A DNA stretch of 64,000 nucleotides from a bacterium (GTDB lineage: Bacteria > Patescibacteriota > Minisyncoccia > Phycocordibacterales > UBA9973): assembly GCA_021831595.1 (NCBI GenBank), contig JAKBMK010000025.1:63114-127113 (forward strand), given 5' to 3'. The notes under the pieces were generated by a model. It saw nothing but the letters and a program-made list of their open reading frames with translations, was not told where the DNA came from and searched no databases. Position numbers and translations under genes: made by a program. Of this stretch, positions 5,567 to 12,976 are shown piece after piece (position 1 is the stretch's first letter; the number at the start of each line of letters is the position of its first letter).

Positions 5567-5570
5567 TATA

Positions 5571-5608
5571 AACAAAATCTCCTTATTAATAATAAGGAGA
5601 TTTTGTTT
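5571..5608 (+). terminator. rho-independent terminator hairpin after gyrB
   Basis: aaacaaaatctcctta..taaggagattttgttt perfect stem followed by T-rich run. Confidence 0.6.
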
Positions 5609-5668
5609 ATGGTAGACAATTTTATTTAAACGGAGTACGATGAATAATAAATTTTAAACTTACAAGGT

Positions 5669-6106
5669 ATGATTTATAACGAAAAACCAAAAAACTTTTC
5701 TCCGGAAATAGAGGTAGTTGCTTGCTTGATGGAATTTAATGGAAAATTTGTTTTATTACATCGCCAAGACAACAAAATACACGGAGATAAGTGGGGTCAA
5801 CCTGCAGGGAAAGTAGATCTTTCAGATGCTGATATTTTCGATGCAATGACAAGAGAATTGAGAGAAGAAACGGGGATAGAAATAAAAAAAGAAGATTTAT
5901 CTTTCTATAAAACATTTTTTGTTTCTCATCCAGATAGAAATTTCCTTTATCATTATTTTGTTCTACATCTAAAGAGAAAGCCCAAAATTATTCTCTCAGA
6001 CAAAGAGCATAAAGATTTTTCCTGGAAAACCCCACTTGAAGCCTTAGAAATGCCACTTATACAAGATGAGGATCATTGCATAAAGCACTATTACGGTCTT
6101 AAATAA
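5669..6106 (+). CDS. Nudix hydrolase
   Basis: Nudix box GKVDLSDADIFDAMTRELREETGIEI (REx2EExGI). Confidence 0.8.
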   Translation: MIYNEKPKNFSPEIEVVACLMEFNGKFVLLHRQDNKIHGDKWGQPAGKVDLSDADIFDAMTRELREETGIEIKKEDLSFYKTFFVSHPDRNFLYHYFVLHLKRKPKIILSDKEHKDFSWKTPLEALEMPLIQDEDHCIKHYYGLK

Positions 6107-6142
6107 AAAATCCCCGCACACATTGAACGCGGGGATTTTTAT
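6105..6142. terminator. bidirectional terminator hairpin between convergent Nudix gene and thrS
   Basis: atccccgcacacattgaacgcggggat stem flanked by A-run and T-run. Confidence 0.6.
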
Positions 6143-6145
6143 TTA

Positions 6146-7885
6146 TTAATTTAGAATCCTTTCTTTAATTTCTTTTTGAAGTTTATTTAGGAATGCTTCG
6201 ACTGTTATTCCTTCGAGTTTCTCAGTGCGGCCTTCGACGGTTATAACACCTGATTCTTTTTCTTTATCGCCAATAACTATTACATAAGGCACCTTGCTCA
6301 TCTTGGCATTTCTTATTCTCTTGCCCAGAGATTCATTTGAGTCATCTAAGCCGGCTCTTATATTTATTTCTTTTAGAGATTCATATACAGAATTTGCATA
6401 TTCTTTCTGATGTTCGGAGATCGGCAACACGACGACTTGAACAGGAGAAAGCCAGAGAGGGAAATTACCCGAAGTGTGTTCTATGAGAATAGATAAGAAT
6501 CTTTCTATCGATCCCATAATAGCGGCATGGATCATCACAATTCTCTCTTTTTCTCCCTTTTCATTCATACAAGTGAGATCAAATCTTTCTGGCATATTCA
6601 TATCAAGTTGGATTGTGGCTACTTGCCATTCTCTACCTAGAGCGTCATTTGCCATAAAGTCGAGCTTTGGACCATAGAAAGCAGCTTCGCCTATGCCGTC
6701 ATATGTTGGTACGTTTTTGCTTTCTGCTATTTCTGTTAGCATTTTCTCTGCAAAACTCCATCTTTCCTGGTCTCCTAAATATTTTTCTATATGCTCGGGG
6801 TCGTGTTTTGATATTCTTACTTTTAATTCAAATCCAAAACTCTTATAGAACCCCTCGACAATTTCCCAAATATTTAAGAACTCTTTCTTTGCATCACTCA
6901 TTCTGCAGAAAACATGTGCATCATCTTGAGCGAAAGCTCTAACTCTTGAAAGTCCAGATAATTCACCGGATTGTTCGTCTCTGTAGCAAGTAGTAGTGTT
7001 GGCATATCTTTGTGGTAACTCTTTGTAACTCCACATTTTGCGATCATAGATCTGAGTGTGATGAGGACAATTCATTGGCTTCATCGCGAACTCATGTCCT
7101 TCACGTGTTGTAATGCGGAATAAATCATCTTTGTATTTTTCCCAATGACCACTTTTCTCATATAAATCTTTTTTAGTGATATGAGGAATTTCTACTTTTT
7201 GGTATCCTTTCATTTGACGGAATGACCATACATAATCGTCTAGCAAGTGTCTAACTAAAGTTCCTTTTGGAGTCCAAAGAGGAAGACCTGGTCCTACAAG
7301 TTCAGAAAATGTGAATAAATCTAATTCTAACCCAAGTTTCTTGTGATCTCTTTTCTTGGCTTCTTCTTGCATTTTTATATATGAATCAAGCTCATCTTTT
7401 GTTTCAAAAGCAAGTCCATATACACGTGTAAGCATTTTGTTCTTCTCGTCTCCACGCCAATAGGCTCCGGCAATACGTTCAATCTTCCAAGAACCATCCT
7501 TCACATCCTTCATATTTTTGATATGTCCGCCACGGCAAAGATCAGCAAAGTTACCAGATCTATAGACTGTAATTTCTTCTCCTTTTTCAACTATTCCATC
7601 TATTAATTCTTCTTTATAAGTATTTCCAGCAAACATAGAAAGAGCTTCTTCTTTTGAAAGAACTTCTTTTTCAAAAGAGGTCCAAGTCTTCATGAGTTCC
7701 TTCATCTTTTTTTCAATCTTTTCTATGTCGGCATCAGTGATTTTACCCTTAACATCTACATCGTAGTAAAAGCCGTTATCAATAGCCGGACCAAGAGTGA
7801 TCTGTGATCCAGGGTAAAGTTCTAGTATAGATGCTCCTAAGAGGTGAGCTAGAGAGTGACGGATATGTTCTAATTTATTTTCCAT
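6146..7885 (-). CDS. thrS: threonine--tRNA ligase (lacks N-terminal TGS/editing region; 579 aa)
   Basis: HIRHSLAHLLG (second additional domain), class II motifs, C-terminal anticodon-binding domain. A T-box leader upstream carries a plausible Thr ACC specifier. Confidence 0.95.
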   Translation of the reverse strand: MENKLEHIRHSLAHLLGASILELYPGSQITLGPAIDNGFYYDVDVKGKITDADIEKIEKKMKELMKTWTSFEKEVLSKEEALSMFAGNTYKEELIDGIVEKGEEITVYRSGNFADLCRGGHIKNMKDVKDGSWKIERIAGAYWRGDEKNKMLTRVYGLAFETKDELDSYIKMQEEAKKRDHKKLGLELDLFTFSELVGPGLPLWTPKGTLVRHLLDDYVWSFRQMKGYQKVEIPHITKKDLYEKSGHWEKYKDDLFRITTREGHEFAMKPMNCPHHTQIYDRKMWSYKELPQRYANTTTCYRDEQSGELSGLSRVRAFAQDDAHVFCRMSDAKKEFLNIWEIVEGFYKSFGFELKVRISKHDPEHIEKYLGDQERWSFAEKMLTEIAESKNVPTYDGIGEAAFYGPKLDFMANDALGREWQVATIQLDMNMPERFDLTCMNEKGEKERIVMIHAAIMGSIERFLSILIEHTSGNFPLWLSPVQVVVLPISEHQKEYANSVYESLKEINIRAGLDDSNESLGKRIRNAKMSKVPYVIVIGDKEKESGVITVEGRTEKLEGITVEAFLNKLQKEIKERILN

Positions 7886-7899
7886 ATATTTTTAAAAAT

Positions 7900-8100
7900 T
7901 ATTATTGATAAAATAAAATCGCCCCGACAAAAAATGAAAAATTCATTTCTTGTCGGGGCGAGTCTAATCGCGGTTCCACCCAACTTTGTGCTTTATTTAT
8001 AGATTAGCCGTTAGGTCCCGAAGGGGATTGTGGTTGGTAGCCACAACAATCTCTATAGGTACAATAGTACAATGTATAGATTCAAATAGCAATATTTGAC
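7900..8100 (-). ncRNA. T-box riboswitch leader of thrS (putative Thr specifier ACC), with terminator/antiterminator
   Basis: On the minus strand: GTTGGG-[TGGAACC]-GCG-attagact-CGC-CCCGAC forms a canonical antiterminator. The 7-nt bulge contains the T-box UGGN, where N=A matches the U discriminator of the tRNA-Thr in this window. The CCCCGAC strand is also the 5' arm of terminator cgccccgacaag..ttgtcggggcg plus U-tract, immediately before the thrS ATG. Upstream hairpin attgtgg-CTACCAA-ccacaat shows ACC followed by A. Confidence 0.75.
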
Positions 8101-8179
8101 AAAATAGTTTATTTATTATATTATTTGGCTGAAATTTATTGCTAAAATCATAAGATAACCCAAAAGGAGGGGGTTAAAA

Positions 8180-8725
8180 ATGTCAGTTTTAAAGTACATA
8201 AGGACCCGGGAGGAGATGGGGAAATATATAGAATCCCTACAAAAAAATGGTCCTGTAAGTGTGCGCCTCGTAGGAGGTACATCTAAAAATGGCAAAAATG
8301 CGGCTTTTGTTATTTTCAAGTTGAAGTTTTTAAATGAATATTATTTATTAGTTATTCCATACAATGATACATATCATTTGAAAGAAGAAGTGGAACTAAT
8401 TGATGAATATGAATCACCCAGAGAAACTGCTGCTCGTGAATTCTTCGAAGAAGTTGGGATTAGAATCAGATCCGATTCTAAATCTCTTAAACTTTTCGAT
8501 ATGATACGAGTCAGAAGTAATTTGAAAAAAGGGGCAATTCATAAAAAATATTTCTTTAGATACATAGAAGAGATTCCTGATTTTTGGGATTATTCAGTTC
8601 TCTTTGAAGAAAGAGAGGATGAAACCCAAACGCCGTTTTTTATAAAGGAATCACTGATCTCTGAATTTCTATATAAAGAGCACTATAAAGCTTTTAAAAG
8701 AAATTGGCGAAAAAGATTTAATTAA
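8180..8725 (+). CDS. hypothetical protein with degenerate Nudix box (ETAAREFFEEVGI)
   Basis: Strong SD AAAGGAGGGGG before the ATG. REFFEEVGI matches REx2EExGu of the Nudix box. Followed by terminator hairpin aaaccccgaa..ttcggggttt. Confidence 0.5.
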   Translation: MSVLKYIRTREEMGKYIESLQKNGPVSVRLVGGTSKNGKNAAFVIFKLKFLNEYYLLVIPYNDTYHLKEEVELIDEYESPRETAAREFFEEVGIRIRSDSKSLKLFDMIRVRSNLKKGAIHKKYFFRYIEEIPDFWDYSVLFEEREDETQTPFFIKESLISEFLYKEHYKAFKRNWRKRFN

Positions 8726-8757
8726 ACCCCGAAGCATGTATATGGTTTCGGGGTTTC

Positions 8758-8785
8758 TTGCTTTTTGGGCAAAAATCGGTATACT
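8758..8785 (+). promoter_or_regulatory. sigma70-like promoter TTGCTT-16-TATACT, -10 ends 7 nt before the rpmF ATG (leaderless candidate)
   Basis: Hexamers read directly. They lie downstream of the preceding terminator hairpin, inside the first part of the ORF-track call 8736. Confidence 0.45.
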
Positions 8786-8792
8786 ATTCAAT

Positions 8793-9008
8793 ATGGTAAT
8801 ACGAATGAGACATACACGAGCCCACACAGGGAATCGTCGATCACATCATGCTTTAAAAGCAAAGACTTTTGCGGTTTGTGCTAATTGTGCGCAACCAAAA
8901 GAGACTCATGTAGTTTGCAAAAACTGTGGCTTTTATCGTGGCCGTAAGGTAGTCGATGTGGTTAATAAAGTTGAAAAGAAACAAGCAAAGAAAAAAAGTG
9001 GTAAGTAG
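8793..9008 (+). CDS. rpmF: 50S ribosomal protein L32
   Basis: MRHTRAHTGNRRSHHALK...CANCAQPKETHVVCKNCGFYRGRKV zinc-ribbon L32 signature. Start moved to ATG 8793 because 8736-8760 is a terminator hairpin and a promoter lies at 8758-8785. Confidence 0.85.
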   Translation: MVIRMRHTRAHTGNRRSHHALKAKTFAVCANCAQPKETHVVCKNCGFYRGRKVVDVVNKVEKKQAKKKSGK

Positions 9009-9074
9009 TAAGCAGTAGGTAGTAAGGTTTAGGTCTTGCTACTTCCTACGTATTTCTTACACATAATTATAATT

Positions 9075-9980
9075 ATGGCAAATAGGCACCTTTCACGTTC
9101 AATTGTTCTTCAGACACTCTTTGAGTGGGATTTTGGAGTAGAAAAAGACACTAAGTCTGAAGACATGTTAGCTCGAAATATAGAAGAATTTGGACCAGGT
9201 CTTGATGACTCGCATTTTATGAGCGAGTTATTTTTAGGTGTTACAAAGAAGAAAGCGATTATCGATGAGATTATAGAGAAAGCTGCACCAGATTGGCCTA
9301 TCGATAAGATTTCTGCTATTGATAGAAATATTCTTCGTCTAGGATTGTACGAACTTCTTTTTGGAGATAGAGAGCAGGTGCCTCCTAAGGTTGCTATCAA
9401 TGAAGCTATAGAACTCGCCAAAAGTTTCGGCGGAGAGAATTCTAGCCGTTTTATAAACGGAGTACTCGGTGGTGTCTATAAAGAAATAGGTGAACCAGGC
9501 AAAGACGATGTAAGTTCTCATAAAAAGCATAAACATTTTGAAACAGATCCATCCAAGTTTCCAATAGAAAAGAAAGCCGGAGCCGTCGTATATGCAAAAC
9601 ATGACGGTGATATATATTTTGCTTTTGTTCATGATGTTTTTGGTTATTGGACCCTCTCAAAAGGTAGTATAGAAGATGGAGAAAATGAAGAGCAAGGCGC
9701 AGTACGTGAAATAAAAGAAGAAATGGGGGTTGATATAAAAATCAAAGAACTTCTTGGGCGTAGTGAATACATAGCAACGCACCCAGAGAATGGAAAGATC
9801 CGCAAGCAAGTAGTATTCTTCTTGGGAGAGACACAATATGGAGATTTGGTACTTGAAAAGGGTAGTGGTGGTCTTGATGACGCAAAGTGGTTTAAGATGG
9901 AAGAAGTTGCAGGACTCAAAATGTACGATAATATGGTGCCACTTCTCACAAAAGCTGTAGAAATTTTAACAAAAGAATAG
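9075..9980 (+). CDS. nusB: NusB (N-terminal) fused to a Nudix hydrolase domain (C-terminal)
   Basis: N-terminus: DRNILRLGLYELLF..VPPKVAINEAIELAKSFGGENSSRFINGVLGGV (NusB). C-terminus: GSIEDGENEEQGAVREIKEEMGVDI (perfect Gx5Ex7REUxEExGU). The ORF-track start 9036 is a TTG; ATG 9075 is preferred. Confidence 0.8.
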   Translation: MANRHLSRSIVLQTLFEWDFGVEKDTKSEDMLARNIEEFGPGLDDSHFMSELFLGVTKKKAIIDEIIEKAAPDWPIDKISAIDRNILRLGLYELLFGDREQVPPKVAINEAIELAKSFGGENSSRFINGVLGGVYKEIGEPGKDDVSSHKKHKHFETDPSKFPIEKKAGAVVYAKHDGDIYFAFVHDVFGYWTLSKGSIEDGENEEQGAVREIKEEMGVDIKIKELLGRSEYIATHPENGKIRKQVVFFLGETQYGDLVLEKGSGGLDDAKWFKMEEVAGLKMYDNMVPLLTKAVEILTKE

Positions 9981-10000: not shown

Positions 10001-10696
10001 ATGATTGATTTTTCCTTATTTGAAAAAAAGACAAATATAGTTTTCAAAGATAAGAAGCTCTTAGAACAAGCTTTTATTCATCGTTCATATATAAATGAAA
10101 GTAGTGGCACCAAATTATCCCATAATGAGCGCTTAGAATTTTTGGGTGATGCAGTTTTAGAGCTCGTTGTTACGGATCATTTATATGGCAAATACCCTGA
10201 TCGTGACGAAGGTGAATTGACGGCCTATAGATCTGCTCTTGTGAACGCTGTGATTATCGGTGAAGTAGCTCTTGCTCTCGGAATGAATGATTATCTATTG
10301 TTATCGAAAGGTGAAGCAAAAGATATAGGCAAAGCTCGCAGCTATATATTGGCAAATACTTACGAAGCTTATGTAGGAGCAGTTTATTTAGACCAAGGAT
10401 ATAATGTTGCTCGTGATTTTATAGCAGAGTCTCTCTTTGGAAAGATAGATGGTATTGTAAAGCAAAAATTGTGGAGAGATGCAAAAAGTTTGGTTCAAGA
10501 AAAATCTCAAGAATATATAAATATTACACCCTCGTATAAGGTTATCAATGAAGCAGGTCCTGATCACGACAAGAATTTCACAGTTGGAATATTCTTTGGG
10601 GGAGACTTGATAGCAGAAGGTAAGGGTCACAGTAAGCAAGAAGCCGAACAATCTGCTGCGCGAAAAGCATTAGAAGTTAAAGAGTGGCTTGATTAA
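10001..10696 (+). CDS. rnc: ribonuclease III
   Basis: ERLEFLGDAVLELVVTDHLY RNase III signature plus C-terminal dsRBD. Confidence 0.9.
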   Translation: MIDFSLFEKKTNIVFKDKKLLEQAFIHRSYINESSGTKLSHNERLEFLGDAVLELVVTDHLYGKYPDRDEGELTAYRSALVNAVIIGEVALALGMNDYLLLSKGEAKDIGKARSYILANTYEAYVGAVYLDQGYNVARDFIAESLFGKIDGIVKQKLWRDAKSLVQEKSQEYINITPSYKVINEAGPDHDKNFTVGIFFGGDLIAEGKGHSKQEAEQSAARKALEVKEWLD

Positions 10697-12976
10697 ATGA
10701 CACTTAAATCTATAGAACTTATTGGTTTTAAATCATTTGGGAAGAAGAGCCCTCTAACTTTTTCAACACCTATAACTTGTATTGTGGGTCCAAACGGATC
10801 TGGAAAATCAAACATTGTAGAAGCTATTCGCTTCGTACTTGGAGAACAGTCTATGAAATCTCTTCGCGGAAAAGGTGGAGTGGATTTAATATTCAAAGGT
10901 TCAAAAAGTTTAGCGACTTCTAATAGAGCCGGAGTAATTATAACTTTTGATAATAGTAATAAAATATTTTCTTTTACCAATAGTGGTGTAGGAGTATCTC
11001 TCGACTATGATGAAGTTTCTATTGGACGTGAAGTATTTTCTGATGGGGCAAATCGTTATAGTATCAATGGGACAGAAGTTAGATTGAAGGATGTTATAGA
11101 TCTGCTTGCTTCGGTTAACATTGGTAGCTCGGGCCATCACATAATTTCCCAAGGGGAAGCTGATCGAGTTCTTAATGCTTCGAATAAAGACCGTCGAGGT
11201 ATGATTGAAGATGCTTTAGGACTTAAGATATATCAATACAGAATAAAAGAGTCTGAGAGAAAATTAGAGAAAACAATATTGAACATGAAAGAAGTTCAGG
11301 CTCTTCGTCGTGAAATAGCTCCACATCTATCATTCCTTAAGAAACAGGTTGAGAAGGTAGAGAAAGCTCGAGCAATGCGAGAGGACTTGAGAGATTTGTA
11401 CAAAACATATTTTAGTGGAGAGGCTACTTATATAGAGAAAGAGACTAGCCGCATTGGTGAATTAAGAGGGGAACTAGATAAAAAAGCTTTGTATTTGGAT
11501 GATAAGATAAAAGAATCAGAAAGTTTGAAAAATATAGATTATACAGAAAGTGAAAACGTAAAACAGATTAGAGAAAAAGAGAGTGAGATACATGAACTTC
11601 GTAGCAAGAAGGATAGCCTCGCTCGTTCCCTAGGACGTATCGAAGGTATAATCGAAGGGATTGAGAGGCAATATGCAAAAATTCCAGAAGTTAAAGAAAA
11701 AATAATAAAAGAATCAGAATGGAAGTCTCTTGTAGAAGACTTGGAATCTAAAATTAATGAAGCTATTAATTTTGAAGACTTACAAAGTGTCAAAAATATT
11801 TTGATAAACATCAAGGAAAAGCTTGGATCTTTTCTTCATAGCGGAACGGAGAGTGAATTTGAAAAGCCAAAGCTAGAAGATAATACAGAATATCTAGAGA
11901 TGGGAAAGGAAAAAGATAATATAATTTTAGAAATAAATAAAGTAAAATCTCAAGAAGAAGAGGTTCAAAATGCAATAAATATTTTGAAAGAAAAAGAAAA
12001 GGAAGGGGAATCATTATTGCGTGATAATGAACGTATGCACTATGAACTCTTGAGGGAGAGGAATGATGTCACTTCCTCTATACATACTCTTACTTTCCAA
12101 GAAGAAAAGTTAATGGCAATTAAGACAGCTTTTGAAATGGAACTTGCAGAAGGAGCAGTTCTAATAGGTAGAGATGTTGTAGCTTTTGCTCAAATTAGAG
12201 TAGAGGAAGAAGTTATCAGAAGTACCCAAGAAGAAATTCGTAGAAAAATTGAGCGCATAAAGATTAAATTAGAAGATGCCGGAGCATCAAATTCTTCTGA
12301 GATAATGAAAGAATATGATGACACAATGGAACGCGATGTTTTCCTTGGAAGAGAACTGGAAGATCTAAATAAGAGTATTGATTCACTTCGAATCCTTATA
12401 CAAGAGTTGAAAGAAACTTTAGATAAAGAATTTAAGAGTGGAGTTGAAAAAATAAACAAACAATTCCAGGAATTTTTTGCTTTGATGTTTGGTGGAGGTG
12501 GTGCTTTCCTTACTATTACTATGGAACACAAGAAGCCAAAAAAGAATGACGAGAAGGTAGGAGAAGAAGATATGGATGAAGAAGATGAGGAAGACGAAGA
12601 TAATAGCGAGCTTGGGTTTGAACGCGGAATTGAAATCAACGTCAATCTTCCTCAGAAGAAGGTGAAAGATTTGCATATGCTATCCGGAGGGGAGAGGTCA
12701 CTCACTTCTATTGCTCTTCTCTTTGCTGTCTCACAAGTAAATCCTCCTCCATTCCTAGTTCTCGATGAGACAGATGCCGCACTCGACGAAGCGAACTCTC
12801 GTAAATACGGTAATATGCTCGAGAATCTATCAAAATATTCACAACTTATCGTTGTCACGCACAATCGCGAGACAATGTCTCGAGCCCAAGTGCTTTATGG
12901 AGTCACAATGAGTGCCGAAGGGGCTTCTAAGCTTCTCTCCATACGTCTCGAAGACGCTACTTCTTACGCCAAATAA
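10697..12976 (+). CDS. smc: SMC-family ATPase (reduced, 759 aa; heads plus coiled coil, no recognisable hinge)
   Basis: N-terminal FKSF..GPNGSGKSNIVEAIRFVLG Walker A. C-terminal LSGGERSLTSIALLFA signature, LVLDETDAALD Walker B, FGGGGA motif. Sits immediately after rnc as in the rnc-smc operon. Confidence 0.7.
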   Translation: MTLKSIELIGFKSFGKKSPLTFSTPITCIVGPNGSGKSNIVEAIRFVLGEQSMKSLRGKGGVDLIFKGSKSLATSNRAGVIITFDNSNKIFSFTNSGVGVSLDYDEVSIGREVFSDGANRYSINGTEVRLKDVIDLLASVNIGSSGHHIISQGEADRVLNASNKDRRGMIEDALGLKIYQYRIKESERKLEKTILNMKEVQALRREIAPHLSFLKKQVEKVEKARAMREDLRDLYKTYFSGEATYIEKETSRIGELRGELDKKALYLDDKIKESESLKNIDYTESENVKQIREKESEIHELRSKKDSLARSLGRIEGIIEGIERQYAKIPEVKEKIIKESEWKSLVEDLESKINEAINFEDLQSVKNILINIKEKLGSFLHSGTESEFEKPKLEDNTEYLEMGKEKDNIILEINKVKSQEEEVQNAINILKEKEKEGESLLRDNERMHYELLRERNDVTSSIHTLTFQEEKLMAIKTAFEMELAEGAVLIGRDVVAFAQIRVEEEVIRSTQEEIRRKIERIKIKLEDAGASNSSEIMKEYDDTMERDVFLGRELEDLNKSIDSLRILIQELKETLDKEFKSGVEKINKQFQEFFALMFGGGGAFLTITMEHKKPKKNDEKVGEEDMDEEDEEDEDNSELGFERGIEINVNLPQKKVKDLHMLSGGERSLTSIALLFAVSQVNPPPFLVLDETDAALDEANSRKYGNMLENLSKYSQLIVVTHNRETMSRAQVLYGVTMSAEGASKLLSIRLEDATSYAK

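What the first reader, a model, noticed from the sequence alone, without database searches (positions are those of the whole stretch)
5669..9980. Nudix-rich neighbourhood including a NusB-Nudix fusion protein
Three Nudix-box proteins lie within about 4.3 kb: a standalone at 5669-6106, a degenerate one at 8180-8725, and 9075-9980. In the last, a complete NusB domain is fused in-frame to a Nudix domain with a perfect catalytic box (GSIEDGENEEQGAVREIKEEMGV). NusB acts at rRNA/antitermination complexes. A fused pyrophosphohydrolase could process 5'-triphosphate or NAD-capped RNA ends, or alarmone/nucleotide signals, at the transcription complex.
Basis: seen in the sequence. Interest (0 to 1): 0.55.

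Follow-up and report, generated by a model that had tools for sequence, protein, structure and literature searches.

The report
NusB fused to Ap4A-hydrolase-like Nudix domain
In this ultra-small (Patescibacteria) bacterium the rRNA-transcription factor NusB carries a built-in nucleotide-binding Nudix module, a real and widespread but undescribed fusion whose conserved property across relatives is ligand binding rather than catalysis; the two other Nudix genes nearby are variable extras.

Summary
ORF 9075-9980 encodes a 301-aa protein with a canonical NusB domain (aa 1-138), a disordered ~25-aa linker and a complete Nudix domain with a perfect Nudix box (aa 197-219). It is not an artefact. The same full-length protein occurs in at least 80 species-level Patescibacteria genomes, almost always in the order rpmF - nusB::nudix - rnc - smc.

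The Nudix domain belongs to the NUDT2/Aquifex Ap4A-hydrolase type (profile E 1e-24, TM 0.86-0.89).

Across the wider fusion family the metal-binding glutamates are intact in only about 20-30% of sequence clusters, with at least 27 state changes on a tree. The phosphate-binding Lys, the adenine-stacking Tyr pair and a neighbouring Trp are kept in about 90-98%. The conserved role is therefore ligand binding at NusB complexes. In this genome's clade the box is intact and under purifying selection (dN/dS ~0.04), so hydrolysis is probably retained here.

The 'Nudix-rich neighbourhood' is not a conserved unit. The two standalone Nudix genes lie in variable gene slots and occur in only 7 and 11 of the 80 related loci.

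The proposed mechanism, 5'-end or Ap4A-type ligand capture or hydrolysis at the antitermination complex, is inferred and not shown.

The parts
9075..9980 (+). nusB::nudix fusion gene (301 aa plus stop). The start is ATG 9075, not the upstream in-frame TTG at 9036.
   Evidence: ORF list. Pfam NusB plus NUDIX and TIGR01951 above its cut-off. Homologues start at MANRH and are about 300 aa long.
9075..9488 (+). NusB domain (aa 1-138), all-helical
   Evidence: Pfam NusB aa 7-136. PDB sequence hits to T. maritima, E. coli, M. tuberculosis and Aquifex NusB, E 3e-20 to 7e-14. The stretch KVAINEAIELAKSFGxExSxxFxNGVL is nearly identical to E. coli. The AF2 model has seven helices.
9489..9560 (+). Charged, variable linker (aa ~139-162), predicted to be disordered
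   Evidence: pLDDT below 50 for aa 141-155 and pTM 0.53. This region has the highest column entropy of the protein across family representatives.
9561..9977 (+). Nudix domain (aa ~163-301), NUDT2/Aquifex Ap4A-hydrolase type
   Evidence: Family profile against PDB: 3i7u E 1.2e-24, followed by CT771, 1kt9, NUDT2 and Ndx1. Foldseek: 3i7u TM 0.86-0.89, rmsd 2.0-2.4.
9663..9731 (+). Nudix box GSIEDGENEEQGAVREIKEEMGV (aa 197-219), a perfect match to the consensus
   Evidence: Sequence. dN/dS 0.039 in the genome's own clade.
9648..9662 (+). W192-T193-L-S-K196 motif. It aligns with WTPPK of NUDT2 (phosphate-binding Lys42). Together with Y232 (nt 9768-9770) and Y284 (nt 9924-9926) it forms the conserved ligand pocket.
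   Evidence: Alignments to human and C. elegans Ap4A hydrolases. Residue roles from PMC4734340. Conservation 89-93% in 56 representatives and 118 of 120 in a second sample.
8805..9008 (+). rpmF (ribosomal protein L32), first gene of the conserved block
   Evidence: Pfam Ribosomal_L32p, E 2.4e-16. Found immediately upstream of the fusion in 78 of 80 loci.
10001..10696 (+). rnc (RNase III), 20 nt downstream of the fusion
   Evidence: Pfam Ribonuclease_3 plus dsrm. Adjacent in 78 of 80 loci, and also next to a dead-box fusion.
10697..12976 (+). Short SMC-like ATPase (759 aa) that starts at the base after the rnc stop codon
   Evidence: Pfam SMC_N spans both head halves and there is no hinge hit. 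Present in 78 of 80 loci.
5669..6106 (+). Standalone Nudix A, a MutT/NudG (E. coli ORF135)-like house-cleaning enzyme. It is an accessory gene in the variable gyrB-thrS slot.
   Evidence: Pfam NUDIX E 1.9e-16. PDB 2rrk CTP pyrophosphohydrolase E 2.8e-8. Present in 7 of 80 loci.
8180..8725 (+). Standalone Nudix B, a divergent Nudix with an extra N-terminal ~45 aa. It is an accessory gene in the variable thrS-rpmF slot.
   Evidence: Pfam NUDIX 24.4 bits. Family alignment A3 has E90, E91 invariant and R86 nearly invariant. hhalign against the fused Nudix profile: probability 91%. Present in 11 of 80 loci.
8724..8756 (+). Terminator-like hairpin (AAACCCCGAA, 13-nt loop, TTCGGGGTTT) followed by a T-run. 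It separates Nudix B from the rpmF operon.
   Evidence: Read directly from the sequence. The consensus scan did not list it because its loop exceeds 8 nt.

Best explanation
Gene 9075-9980 encodes the organism's NusB, the boxA-RNA/NusE-binding subunit of the rRNA antitermination complex. It is extended by a flexible ~25-residue linker and a C-terminal Nudix domain of the NUDT2/Aquifex Ap4A-hydrolase type.

Shown:
- the architecture;
- its presence in many Patescibacteria (Paceibacteria/Nomurabacteria-type) genomes, in a fixed rpmF - nusB::nudix - rnc - smc block;
- strong purifying selection on both domains in this clade;
- across the whole fusion family, near-invariance of the residues that bind the polyphosphate (K196) and stack the adenine ring (Y232, Y284, with W192) in characterised Ap4A hydrolases, together with repeated loss of the Mg2+-binding glutamates.

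Inferred:
- The Nudix module gives NusB-containing transcription complexes a binding site for a purine nucleoside polyphosphate. The ligand could be free Ap4A/ApnN/ATP-like molecules or the 5'-triphosphate or Np4-capped end of the nascent boxA-containing transcript.
- In lineages with an intact box, including this genome, the bound ligand is probably also hydrolysed (Ap4A-hydrolase or RNA 5'-pyrophosphohydrolase-like activity).
- In the many dead-box lineages the domain acts as a non-catalytic sensor or anchor.
For: - Architecture.
- Not an artefact: 120 homologues at 80% identity or more, all carrying PF01029 plus PF00293, on contigs up to 360 kb. 119 GTDB species matched; all but three of the 80 kept (partial genes at contig ends) cover query residue 1 to 295-301 at 57-95% identity. 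About 57 full-length representatives down to 31% identity among 1.84 billion cluster representatives.
- Synteny: rpmF, rnc and smc flank the fusion in 78 of 80 loci. The same holds for a dead-box member.
- Canonical NusB: TIGR01951 124.9 bits against 88.35, with near-identity to the E. coli C-terminal helix region.
- Ap4A-hydrolase type: profile E 1.2e-24 to 3i7u, then CT771, 1kt9, NUDT2 and Ndx1. Foldseek TM 0.86-0.89.
- Pocket against catalysis: W192 93%, K196 93%, Y232 aromatic 89%, Y284 91%, compared with E212 23% and a complete core in only 10 of 56 representatives. In the second sample, WKYY is present in 118 of 120 and the full core in 36 of 120.
- Repeated loss: at least 27 state changes on a tree of 187 fusions.
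- Residue roles: PMC4734340.
- Own clade: box intact in 55 of 80 loci; dN/dS is 0.046 for NusB, 0.043 for Nudix and 0.039 for the box.
- Precedents for enzyme-fold proteins used non-catalytically in RNA machines: CFIm25 binds but does not hydrolyse Ap4A (PMC2425470); SuhB is part of the E. coli rrnTAC (PMC6614797, PMC6614801).
Against: - No biochemical data exist for any member, and the ligand is inferred only from homology to Ap4A hydrolases.
- The HHW histidines of NUDT2-type enzymes are FGYW here.
- AF2 gives no confident inter-domain arrangement (pTM 0.53), so nothing shows that the Nudix domain contacts RNA or other Nus factors.
- No rRNA operon or boxA lies in the window, so the distance between the 5' end and boxA could not be examined.
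- Whole genomes could not be scanned for a second nusB, suhB, rppH or apaH.
- Closely related lineages manage with a plain 144-152-aa NusB in the same rpmF-nusB-rnc context, so the module is not essential to NusB function in general.
- dS is close to saturation, so the dN/dS values are approximate.
Confidence: 0.5

Rival explanations
1. One reading: the fusion exists to deliver a catalytic pyrophosphohydrolase to the antitermination complex. The enzyme would be RppH-like (5'-ppp to 5'-p), an NAD or Np4 decapping enzyme, or an alarmone hydrolase. Catalysis would be the selected function.
For: The window's box is perfect and under purifying selection. The box is intact in 55 of 80 related species. 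The domain type includes enzymes that act on Ap4A and, for human NUDT2, on ppp-RNA (PMC8616924). RppH and ApaH decap Np4-RNA in E. coli (PMC7044304, PMC8833179). The adjacent, probably co-transcribed rnc fits an RNA-processing theme.
Against: About 70-80% of diverged fusion clusters lack at least one essential glutamate. The RE glutamate is replaced by V, I, K or A, yet these proteins keep full length, the ligand pocket and the synteny. Even among homologues at 80% identity or more there are RE to RA, EE to KE and E203 to I/D variants. RppH, NudC and MutT equivalog models score far below their cut-offs.
Confidence: 0.25
2. A functionally neutral 'hitch-hiker' fusion. An ordinary house-cleaning Ap4A hydrolase gene became fused to nusB, and the two domains act independently. 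The degenerate boxes would reflect slow decay of a dispensable appendage.
For: A flexible linker and no predicted domain interface. Sister lineages have plain NusB in the same context. Catalytic residues are lost repeatedly.
Against: The domain is never truncated in the roughly 290 full-length members examined. The non-catalytic pocket residues (W192, K196, Y232, Y284) are more conserved than the catalytic ones, in 118 of 120 sequences, which decay would not produce. dN/dS for the Nudix domain equals that of NusB. Dead-box lineages are themselves diversified, with a dozen 90% clusters at 62-82% identity that retain a length of 291-304 aa.
Confidence: 0.15
3. The three Nudix genes form a cooperating nucleotide-sanitation or RNA-decapping gene cluster (a 'Nudix island').
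For: They are the only three Nudix-box ORFs in 64 kb and all lie within 4.3 kb. The same variable slots in other genomes hold another Nudix (L029) and other small accessory genes.
Against: Nudix A occurs in 7 of 80 loci and Nudix B in 11 of 80. All three genes co-occur only in the nearest relatives (L002, L007, L067). The slots otherwise hold unrelated genes: a PaaX-like regulator, an IS200-like transposase and DUF4406. Nudix B is followed by its own terminator-like hairpin. The three belong to different Nudix subtypes.
Confidence: 0.05
4. Assembly or frameshift artefact that joins separate nusB and nudix genes.
For: None found.
Against: The same continuous ORF occurs in hundreds of independent assemblies from NCBI, JGI, ENA and Logan. 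Apparent 'standalone' Nudix relatives are truncated fusions at contig ends; for example, L083 begins with a Nextera adapter.
Confidence: 0.01

Closest known systems
NusB (transcription antitermination factor; TIGR01951 / PF01029), e.g. E. coli NusB in the rrnTAC and lambda N complexes
   Same: The N-terminal 138 aa are a full-length NusB that scores above the equivalog cut-off. The C-terminal helix region is almost identical to that of E. coli (F16 = Y18, N122 = D118, as in the NusB101 D118N variant, and F126 = F122). The gene lies in a ribosome-biogenesis context (rpmF, rnc).
   Different: It carries a 160-aa C-terminal linker plus Nudix domain that is absent from all characterised NusB proteins. 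The only well-known NusB-domain fusion is RsmB/Sun, where the NusB-like domain sits N-terminal to a methyltransferase.
NUDT2 / Aquifex aq_158 / C. elegans / Chlamydia CT771 Ap4A hydrolases and Thermus Ndx1 (Ap6A hydrolase)
   Same: These are the best sequence-profile and structural matches (E 1e-24; TM 0.86-0.89). They share the W-T/S-x-P/S-K-G motif directly before the Nudix box, the adenine-stacking Tyr and Tyr/Phe, and a similar size of about 135 aa.
   Different: Here the domain is tethered to NusB. The HHW histidines are not conserved. Most family members have lost catalytic glutamates. No activity has been measured.
CFIm25 / NUDT21 (non-catalytic Nudix subunit of eukaryotic pre-mRNA 3'-processing factor)
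   Same: It is a Nudix fold within an RNA-processing or transcription-coupled machine. It lacks two box glutamates and binds but does not hydrolyse Ap4A/ATP (PMC2425470). This is functionally analogous to the dead-box fusion members.
   Different: It is not closely related and binds UGUA RNA as a dimer. The window's own protein still has an intact box.
SuhB in the E. coli rRNA antitermination complex
   Same: It is an enzyme-fold protein (inositol monophosphatase) recruited as a structural or regulatory subunit of the NusB/NusE/NusA/NusG complex (PMC6614797, PMC6614801).
   Different: It has an unrelated fold and is a separate polypeptide that binds NusA and RNAP. There is no evidence here that the Nudix domain replaces it.
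RppH / BsRppH / BdRppH RNA 5'-pyrophosphohydrolases
   Same: They belong to the Nudix superfamily. E. coli RppH also hydrolyses ApnA and removes Np4 caps, so the activity proposed for intact-box members overlaps.
   Different: RppH NCBIfam models score 29 bits or less against cut-offs of 116-259. BdRppH ranks only 41st in Foldseek.

Membership tests
NusB (TIGR01951 equivalog / PF01029) | Sequence reaches the curated equivalog score over the full domain | tested here: met
   TIGR01951 scores 124.9 bits against a cut-off of 88.35 (aa 4-137). Pfam NusB E 3.8e-34.
NusB (TIGR01951 equivalog / PF01029) | All-helical ~130-140-aa fold, with the conserved C-terminal helices that form the boxA RNA/NusE surface | tested here: met
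   The AF2 model has seven helices. The alignment to E. coli, T. maritima and Aquifex NusB shows KVAINEAIELAKSFG..S..F.NGVL conserved, with F16 = Y18 and F126 = F122. F126, G129 and E93 are 100% conserved in the family.
NusB (TIGR01951 equivalog / PF01029) | Binds NusE (S10) and boxA RNA; supports antitermination | not testable with these tools
   This needs biochemistry or complementation. No rRNA leader or boxA lies in the window.
NusB (TIGR01951 equivalog / PF01029) | It is the genome's only (housekeeping) nusB | tested here: inconclusive
   There is no second NusB in the 64-kb window. Plain NusB orthologues in sister lineages occupy the same rpmF-nusB-rnc position.
Nudix hydrolase superfamily (PF00293) | Nudix box GX5EX7REUXEEXGU | tested here: met
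   GSIEDGENEEQGAVREIKEEMGV at aa 197-219 is an exact match. The feature is not met in about 70-80% of diverged family clusters.
Nudix hydrolase superfamily (PF00293) | Alpha/beta/alpha Nudix fold of about 130 aa | tested here: met
   In the AF2 model most 10-residue blocks of the Nudix domain have mean pLDDT 83-96, with two loop blocks lower (58 and 66). The strands and the box helix (aa 205-217) are present. The top 50 Foldseek hits are all Nudix proteins.
NUDT2 / Aquifex-type Ap4A (ApnA) hydrolases | Closest sequence and structure relatives are characterised ApnA hydrolases | tested here: met
   Profile E values: 3i7u 1.2e-24, CT771 1.9e-16, 1kt9 1.8e-14, NUDT2 8.9e-14, Ndx1 2.2e-13. Foldseek rank 1 is 3i7u, TM 0.86-0.89.
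NUDT2 / Aquifex-type Ap4A (ApnA) hydrolases | Substrate-binding residues: Lys of WTPPKG (human K42), adenine-stacking Tyr (Y82) and Tyr/Phe (F128), and a phosphate-binding His preceding the Trp | tested here: inconclusive
   K196, Y232 and Y284 align to K42, Y82 and F128 and are conserved. The HHW histidines are replaced by G-Y/K/H-W.
NUDT2 / Aquifex-type Ap4A (ApnA) hydrolases | Hydrolyses Ap4A or related dinucleoside polyphosphates | not testable with these tools
   This needs an enzyme assay. The catalytic residues are present in the window's protein only.
RppH (RNA pyrophosphohydrolase equivalogs) | Reaches a curated RppH model cut-off | tested here: not met
   The best RppH model, NF001936, scores 29.1 bits against a cut-off of 118. 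The others score 20 bits or less against cut-offs of 116-259.
Non-catalytic (pseudo-enzyme) Nudix domains, CFIm25-like in function | Loss of metal-binding box glutamates with retention of the fold and ligand-binding residues | tested here: not met
   The feature is not met by the window's protein, whose box is intact. It is met by most other fusion-family members. This is an analogy of function, not family membership.

The most novel reading that the evidence does not exclude
The NusB-tethered Nudix module is a nucleotide or 5'-end sensor built into the rRNA antitermination complex of Patescibacteria. It would bind Ap4A/Np4N alarmones, or the (poly)phosphorylated or Np4-capped 5' end of the nascent boxA transcript. 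This would couple rRNA transcription, folding and processing to nucleotide or stress status, either as an enzyme (intact-box lineages such as this one) or as a pure receptor (dead-box lineages). In role it would be a lineage-specific accessory subunit analogous to SuhB.
Probability: 0.2. Interest if true: 0.8.

Novelty: new variant of a known kind. Interest (0 to 1): 0.58.

Why it matters
NusB is a universal core factor of bacterial rRNA transcription, and no enzymatic or ligand-sensing extension of it has been characterised.

This work found a conserved fusion, spread across a major Patescibacteria class, to an Ap4A-hydrolase-type domain. The ligand pocket of that domain is kept more faithfully than its active site. 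This suggests a direct link between dinucleoside-polyphosphate or RNA-5'-end chemistry and the antitermination and ribosome-biogenesis machinery in organisms with minimal genomes.

The family also offers a natural series of active and inactive forms that could be used to separate binding from catalysis. Public annotation labels these proteins simply 'NusB', and the full-text searches run here found no description of the fusion.

Tried and rejected
- **Assembly or frameshift artefact:** rejected.
- **Conserved three-gene Nudix cluster:** rejected by synteny in 80 loci.
- **Origin by fusion with a neighbouring standalone Nudix gene:** the apparent standalone relative P0229 is a truncated fusion whose contig starts with a Nextera adapter. 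Plain-NusB relatives have no adjacent Nudix. The origin remains unknown.
- **boxA consensus search in the window:** 12 matches against 11.4 expected, and none near the operon. There is no rRNA in the window.
- **PADLOC and PHROGs scans:** only generic Nudix similarity, with no defence or phage signal.
- **The listing of cluster members for the taxonomy of distant members:** almost no names returned.
- **Literature searches:** 'NusB + Nudix + fusion' and 'NusB + Candidate Phyla Radiation' gave nothing relevant, and the Nudix-clan review does not mention NusB.
- **Promoter and terminator scan:** no more sites than the shuffled controls.
- **First tree script:** timed out and was redone with UPGMA.

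Full report
**1. What is in the window**

The region has about 36% G+C and encodes pheT, gyrB, a 145-aa Nudix protein (5669-6106), thrS on the minus strand, a 181-aa protein (8180-8725), rpmF (8805-9008), a 301-aa protein (9075-9980), rnc (10001-10696) and a short SMC-like ATPase (10697-12976). Named homologues come from Candidatus Nomurabacteria, Paceibacterota and the Parcubacteria group, so this is a Patescibacteria (CPR) genome.

**2. The observation checked**

- The 301-aa protein matches Pfam NusB (aa 7-136, E 3.8e-34) and NUDIX (E 4.6e-14). It exceeds the curated cut-off of the NCBIfam nusB equivalog TIGR01951 (124.9 bits against 88.35).
- The quoted motif GSIEDGENEEQGAVREIKEEMGV is at aa 197-219 and fits GX5EX7REUXEEXGU exactly.
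- Nudix A (5669-6106) is a clear Nudix (E 1.9e-16). It is closest to E. coli ORF135/NudG-type CTP pyrophosphohydrolase (2rrk, E 2.8e-8).
- Nudix B (8180-8725) only just passes the Pfam threshold, over 30 residues. A 12-sequence family alignment keeps E-x7-R-E-U-x-E-E-x-G, and its profile aligns to the fused-domain profile over 125 columns (hhalign probability 91%). It is a real but divergent Nudix with an extra N-terminal segment.
- These three are the only Nudix-box ORFs in the 64 kb.

**3. The fusion is real, old and widespread**

- A search of 5.8 billion proteins returned at least 120 clusters at 80% identity or more. All are about 300 aa, all carry both Pfam domains, they come from four independent data sources, and they sit on contigs up to 360 kb.
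- In one-genome-per-species GTDB contigs, 119 species matched. All but three of the 80 kept loci (partial genes at contig ends) cover query residue 1 to 295-301 at 57-95% identity.
- An exhaustive HMMER scan of 1.84 billion 50%-identity representatives gave 161 hits below 1e-30. About 57 of the best 150 are full-length fusions, down to 31% identity.
- Gene order is fixed: rpmF lies directly upstream and rnc and smc directly downstream in 78 of 80 loci.
- The fusion is therefore not an assembly or frameshift artefact.
- Sources annotate these proteins simply as 'NusB'. Full-text searches found no paper that mentions the fusion, and a comprehensive review of the Nudix clan does not mention NusB.

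**4. The 'Nudix-rich neighbourhood' is not conserved**

Nudix A is found in 7 of the 80 loci and Nudix B in 11. All three genes co-occur only in the closest relatives. The gyrB-thrS and thrS-rpmF gaps are variable slots. In other genomes they hold a PaaX-like regulator, an IS200-like transposase, a DUF4406 protein, another Nudix and other genes. Nudix B is followed by its own hairpin and T-run (8724-8766, read). The three Nudix proteins belong to different subtypes. The clustering is best read as lineage-specific accessory content next to a conserved operon.

**5. Anatomy of the fusion protein**

AlphaFold2 gives mean pLDDT 81.6. It predicts a helical NusB domain (aa 4-138), a disordered segment (aa 141-155, pLDDT below 50) and a complete Nudix alpha/beta/alpha domain (aa 164-299). 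pTM is only 0.53, so there is no confident fixed orientation between the domains, which fits a flexible tether.

The NusB part aligns end to end with solved NusB structures (T. maritima 2.9e-20, E. coli 2e-16). It shares an almost identical KVAINEAIELAKSFG-E-S--F-NGVL stretch with E. coli. F16 corresponds to E. coli Y18, N122 to D118 (Asn as in the NusB101 variant 3imq) and F126 to F122.

**6. What kind of Nudix domain it is**

- By single sequence, the best solved relatives are Aquifex Ap4A hydrolase, Thermus Ndx1 (Ap6A hydrolase), C. elegans Ap4A hydrolase and human NUDT2.
- A 32-member family profile raises these to E values of 1.2e-24 (3i7u), 1.9e-16 (CT771), 1.8e-14 (1kt9) and 8.9e-14 (NUDT2). 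Dcp2 and MutT1 rank lower, and RppH is marginal.
- Foldseek with the model puts 3i7u first (TM 0.86-0.89, rmsd 2.0-2.4 Å). It is followed by MutT1/Rv2985 (a diadenosine polyphosphatase), Ndx1, CT771 and C. elegans Ap4A hydrolase. BdRppH ranks 41st.
- RppH, NudC, MutT and other NCBIfam equivalogs are far below their cut-offs.

**7. Key comparative result: pocket kept, catalysis often lost**

The alignments map query K196 to human NUDT2 K42 (the WTPPKG lysine), Y232 to Y82 and Y284 to F128 (C. elegans Y121). According to PMC4734340, K42 and Y82 bind the P1 phosphate, and the adenine ring is stacked between the loop-5 Tyr and a second Tyr/Phe.

| Sample | Ligand-pocket residues | Catalytic residues |
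|---|---|---|
| 56 full-length 50%-identity representatives | W192 93%, K196 93%, aromatic at 232 89%, Y284 91% | E212 (Glu of 'RE') 23%, replaced by I/V/K/A; E215 54%; E203 63%; whole E-RE-EE core in 10 of 56 |
| 120 fusions centred on a dead-box member | W-K-Y-Y in 118 of 120 | full core in 36 of 120 |

- In about a dozen clusters the domain is so altered that Pfam no longer calls NUDIX, although the length stays at 291-304 aa.
- One such protein, P0278 (box region ...NIKKVINKEFGI), lies in the same rpmF-fusion-rnc arrangement on a 21.7-kb NCBI contig and on an independent Logan contig.
- On a distance tree of 187 fusions built without the box columns, the intact or degenerate state needs at least 27 changes, against a mean of 51 when the states are shuffled.
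- Even among homologues at 80% identity or more there are RE to RA, EE to KE and E203 to I/D variants.
- What selection preserves across the family is therefore the fold and the nucleotide/polyphosphate pocket, not hydrolysis.

**8. The window's own clade**

The box is intact in 55 of 80 related species. Among the window and ten of its close relatives (88-95% identical to it), dN/dS is about 0.046 for NusB, 0.069 for the linker, 0.043 for the Nudix domain and 0.039 for the box itself. dS is 1.2-1.6, close to saturation, so these values are approximate. In this organism the domain is clearly functional and probably still catalytic.

**9. Origin**

Apparent standalone relatives of the Nudix domain are fragments. 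P0229 is the 3' half of a fusion on a contig that begins with a Nextera adapter. Plain 144-152-aa NusB proteins up to 58% identical to the NusB domain occur in related lineages. Some sit in the same rpmF-nusB(-rnc) position, and none has an adjacent Nudix gene. The Nudix domain was therefore acquired, or in those lineages lost, at the 3' end of nusB within Patescibacteria. Its source is unresolved.

**10. Mechanism (inferred)**

NusB with NusE binds boxA on nascent rRNA leaders and stays with the elongating polymerase in the rrnTAC; this is established knowledge (PMC6614797, PMC6614801, PMC4807359). A nucleotide-polyphosphate-binding domain on a ~25-residue tether would sit near the 5' part of the transcript. 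Two ligand classes fit the homology:

- free Ap4A/ApnN or ATP-type molecules;
- the 5'-triphosphate or Np4-capped end of the RNA.

NUDT2 trims ppp-RNA (PMC8616924). Np4 caps exist in bacteria and are removed by Nudix RppH and by ApaH (PMC7044304, PMC8833179). Intact-box proteins such as this one would hydrolyse the ligand, and dead-box ones would only bind it. CFIm25 offers a parallel: it is a Nudix protein in an RNA-processing factor that binds but does not hydrolyse Ap4A (PMC2425470). None of this is shown for any member. No boxA or rRNA leader is in the window.

**11. Verdict**

The substrate class is plausible, but catalysis is not the conserved function, and the three-gene 'neighbourhood' is incidental.
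- The fusion is a new variant of known kinds (NusB plus an Ap4A-hydrolase-type Nudix). It is present in public data but undescribed.
- Interest is moderate to good, because it gives a concrete, testable link between nucleotide or 5'-end chemistry and the antitermination machinery, together with a natural series of active and inactive forms.

Noticed in passing
window 10697-12976 (+): The SMC-like protein is only 759 aa. Pfam SMC_N covers both head halves, but no hinge domain is detected and the coiled coil is short. The same short form follows rnc in 78 of 80 related loci.
   Followed up: partly
window 5567-6145 and 7886-8804; loci L001-L080, gaps gyrB-thrS and thrS-rpmF: These two intergenic slots are hypervariable between related genomes. 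They hold Nudix A, Nudix B, a third Nudix type (L029:2445-2990), a PaaX/Cas2-like regulator (L002:949-1494), an IS200-like Y1 transposase (L011:3202-3882), a DUF4406 protein (L011:2696-3151) and several ORFs with no Pfam match.
   Followed up: partly
window 7919-7961 and 5568-5610: Two long, perfect 20-bp-stem hairpins with flanking T/A runs lie between convergent or tandem genes, at the start of thrS and after gyrB. They look like bidirectional terminators.
   Followed up: no
proteins P0242, P0246, P0269: Some related NusB proteins (338-345 aa) carry a ~200-aa Lys/Glu-rich, low-complexity C-terminal tail with no Pfam match in place of the Nudix domain. P0126 is a NusB-Nudix with an additional weak Rho_N/SAP-like C-terminal segment. 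C-terminal elaboration of NusB therefore seems recurrent in this group.
   Followed up: no
L083:1-38: A public Logan contig begins with a Nextera transposase adapter remnant (it translates as ...RCV*ETG). This makes a truncated fusion gene look like a standalone 149-aa Nudix protein.
   Followed up: yes
L081:6363-7225 and 11230-11569: In the genome of a dead-box fusion, rnc is followed by an RRM_1 RNA-binding protein and a HicA toxin instead of smc. A RelA/SpoT-family (HD + RelA_SpoT + TGS) gene lies about 5 kb away, so at least that lineage has (p)ppGpp metabolism.
   Followed up: no
window 8180-8320 (Nudix B N-terminus) and alignment A3: The Nudix B family has a conserved N-terminal motif (G-F-D-S-I-x-L-P-G-G-T-S-K-x-G) that precedes the Nudix core. 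It has no match in PDB or Pfam and its function is unknown.
   Followed up: no
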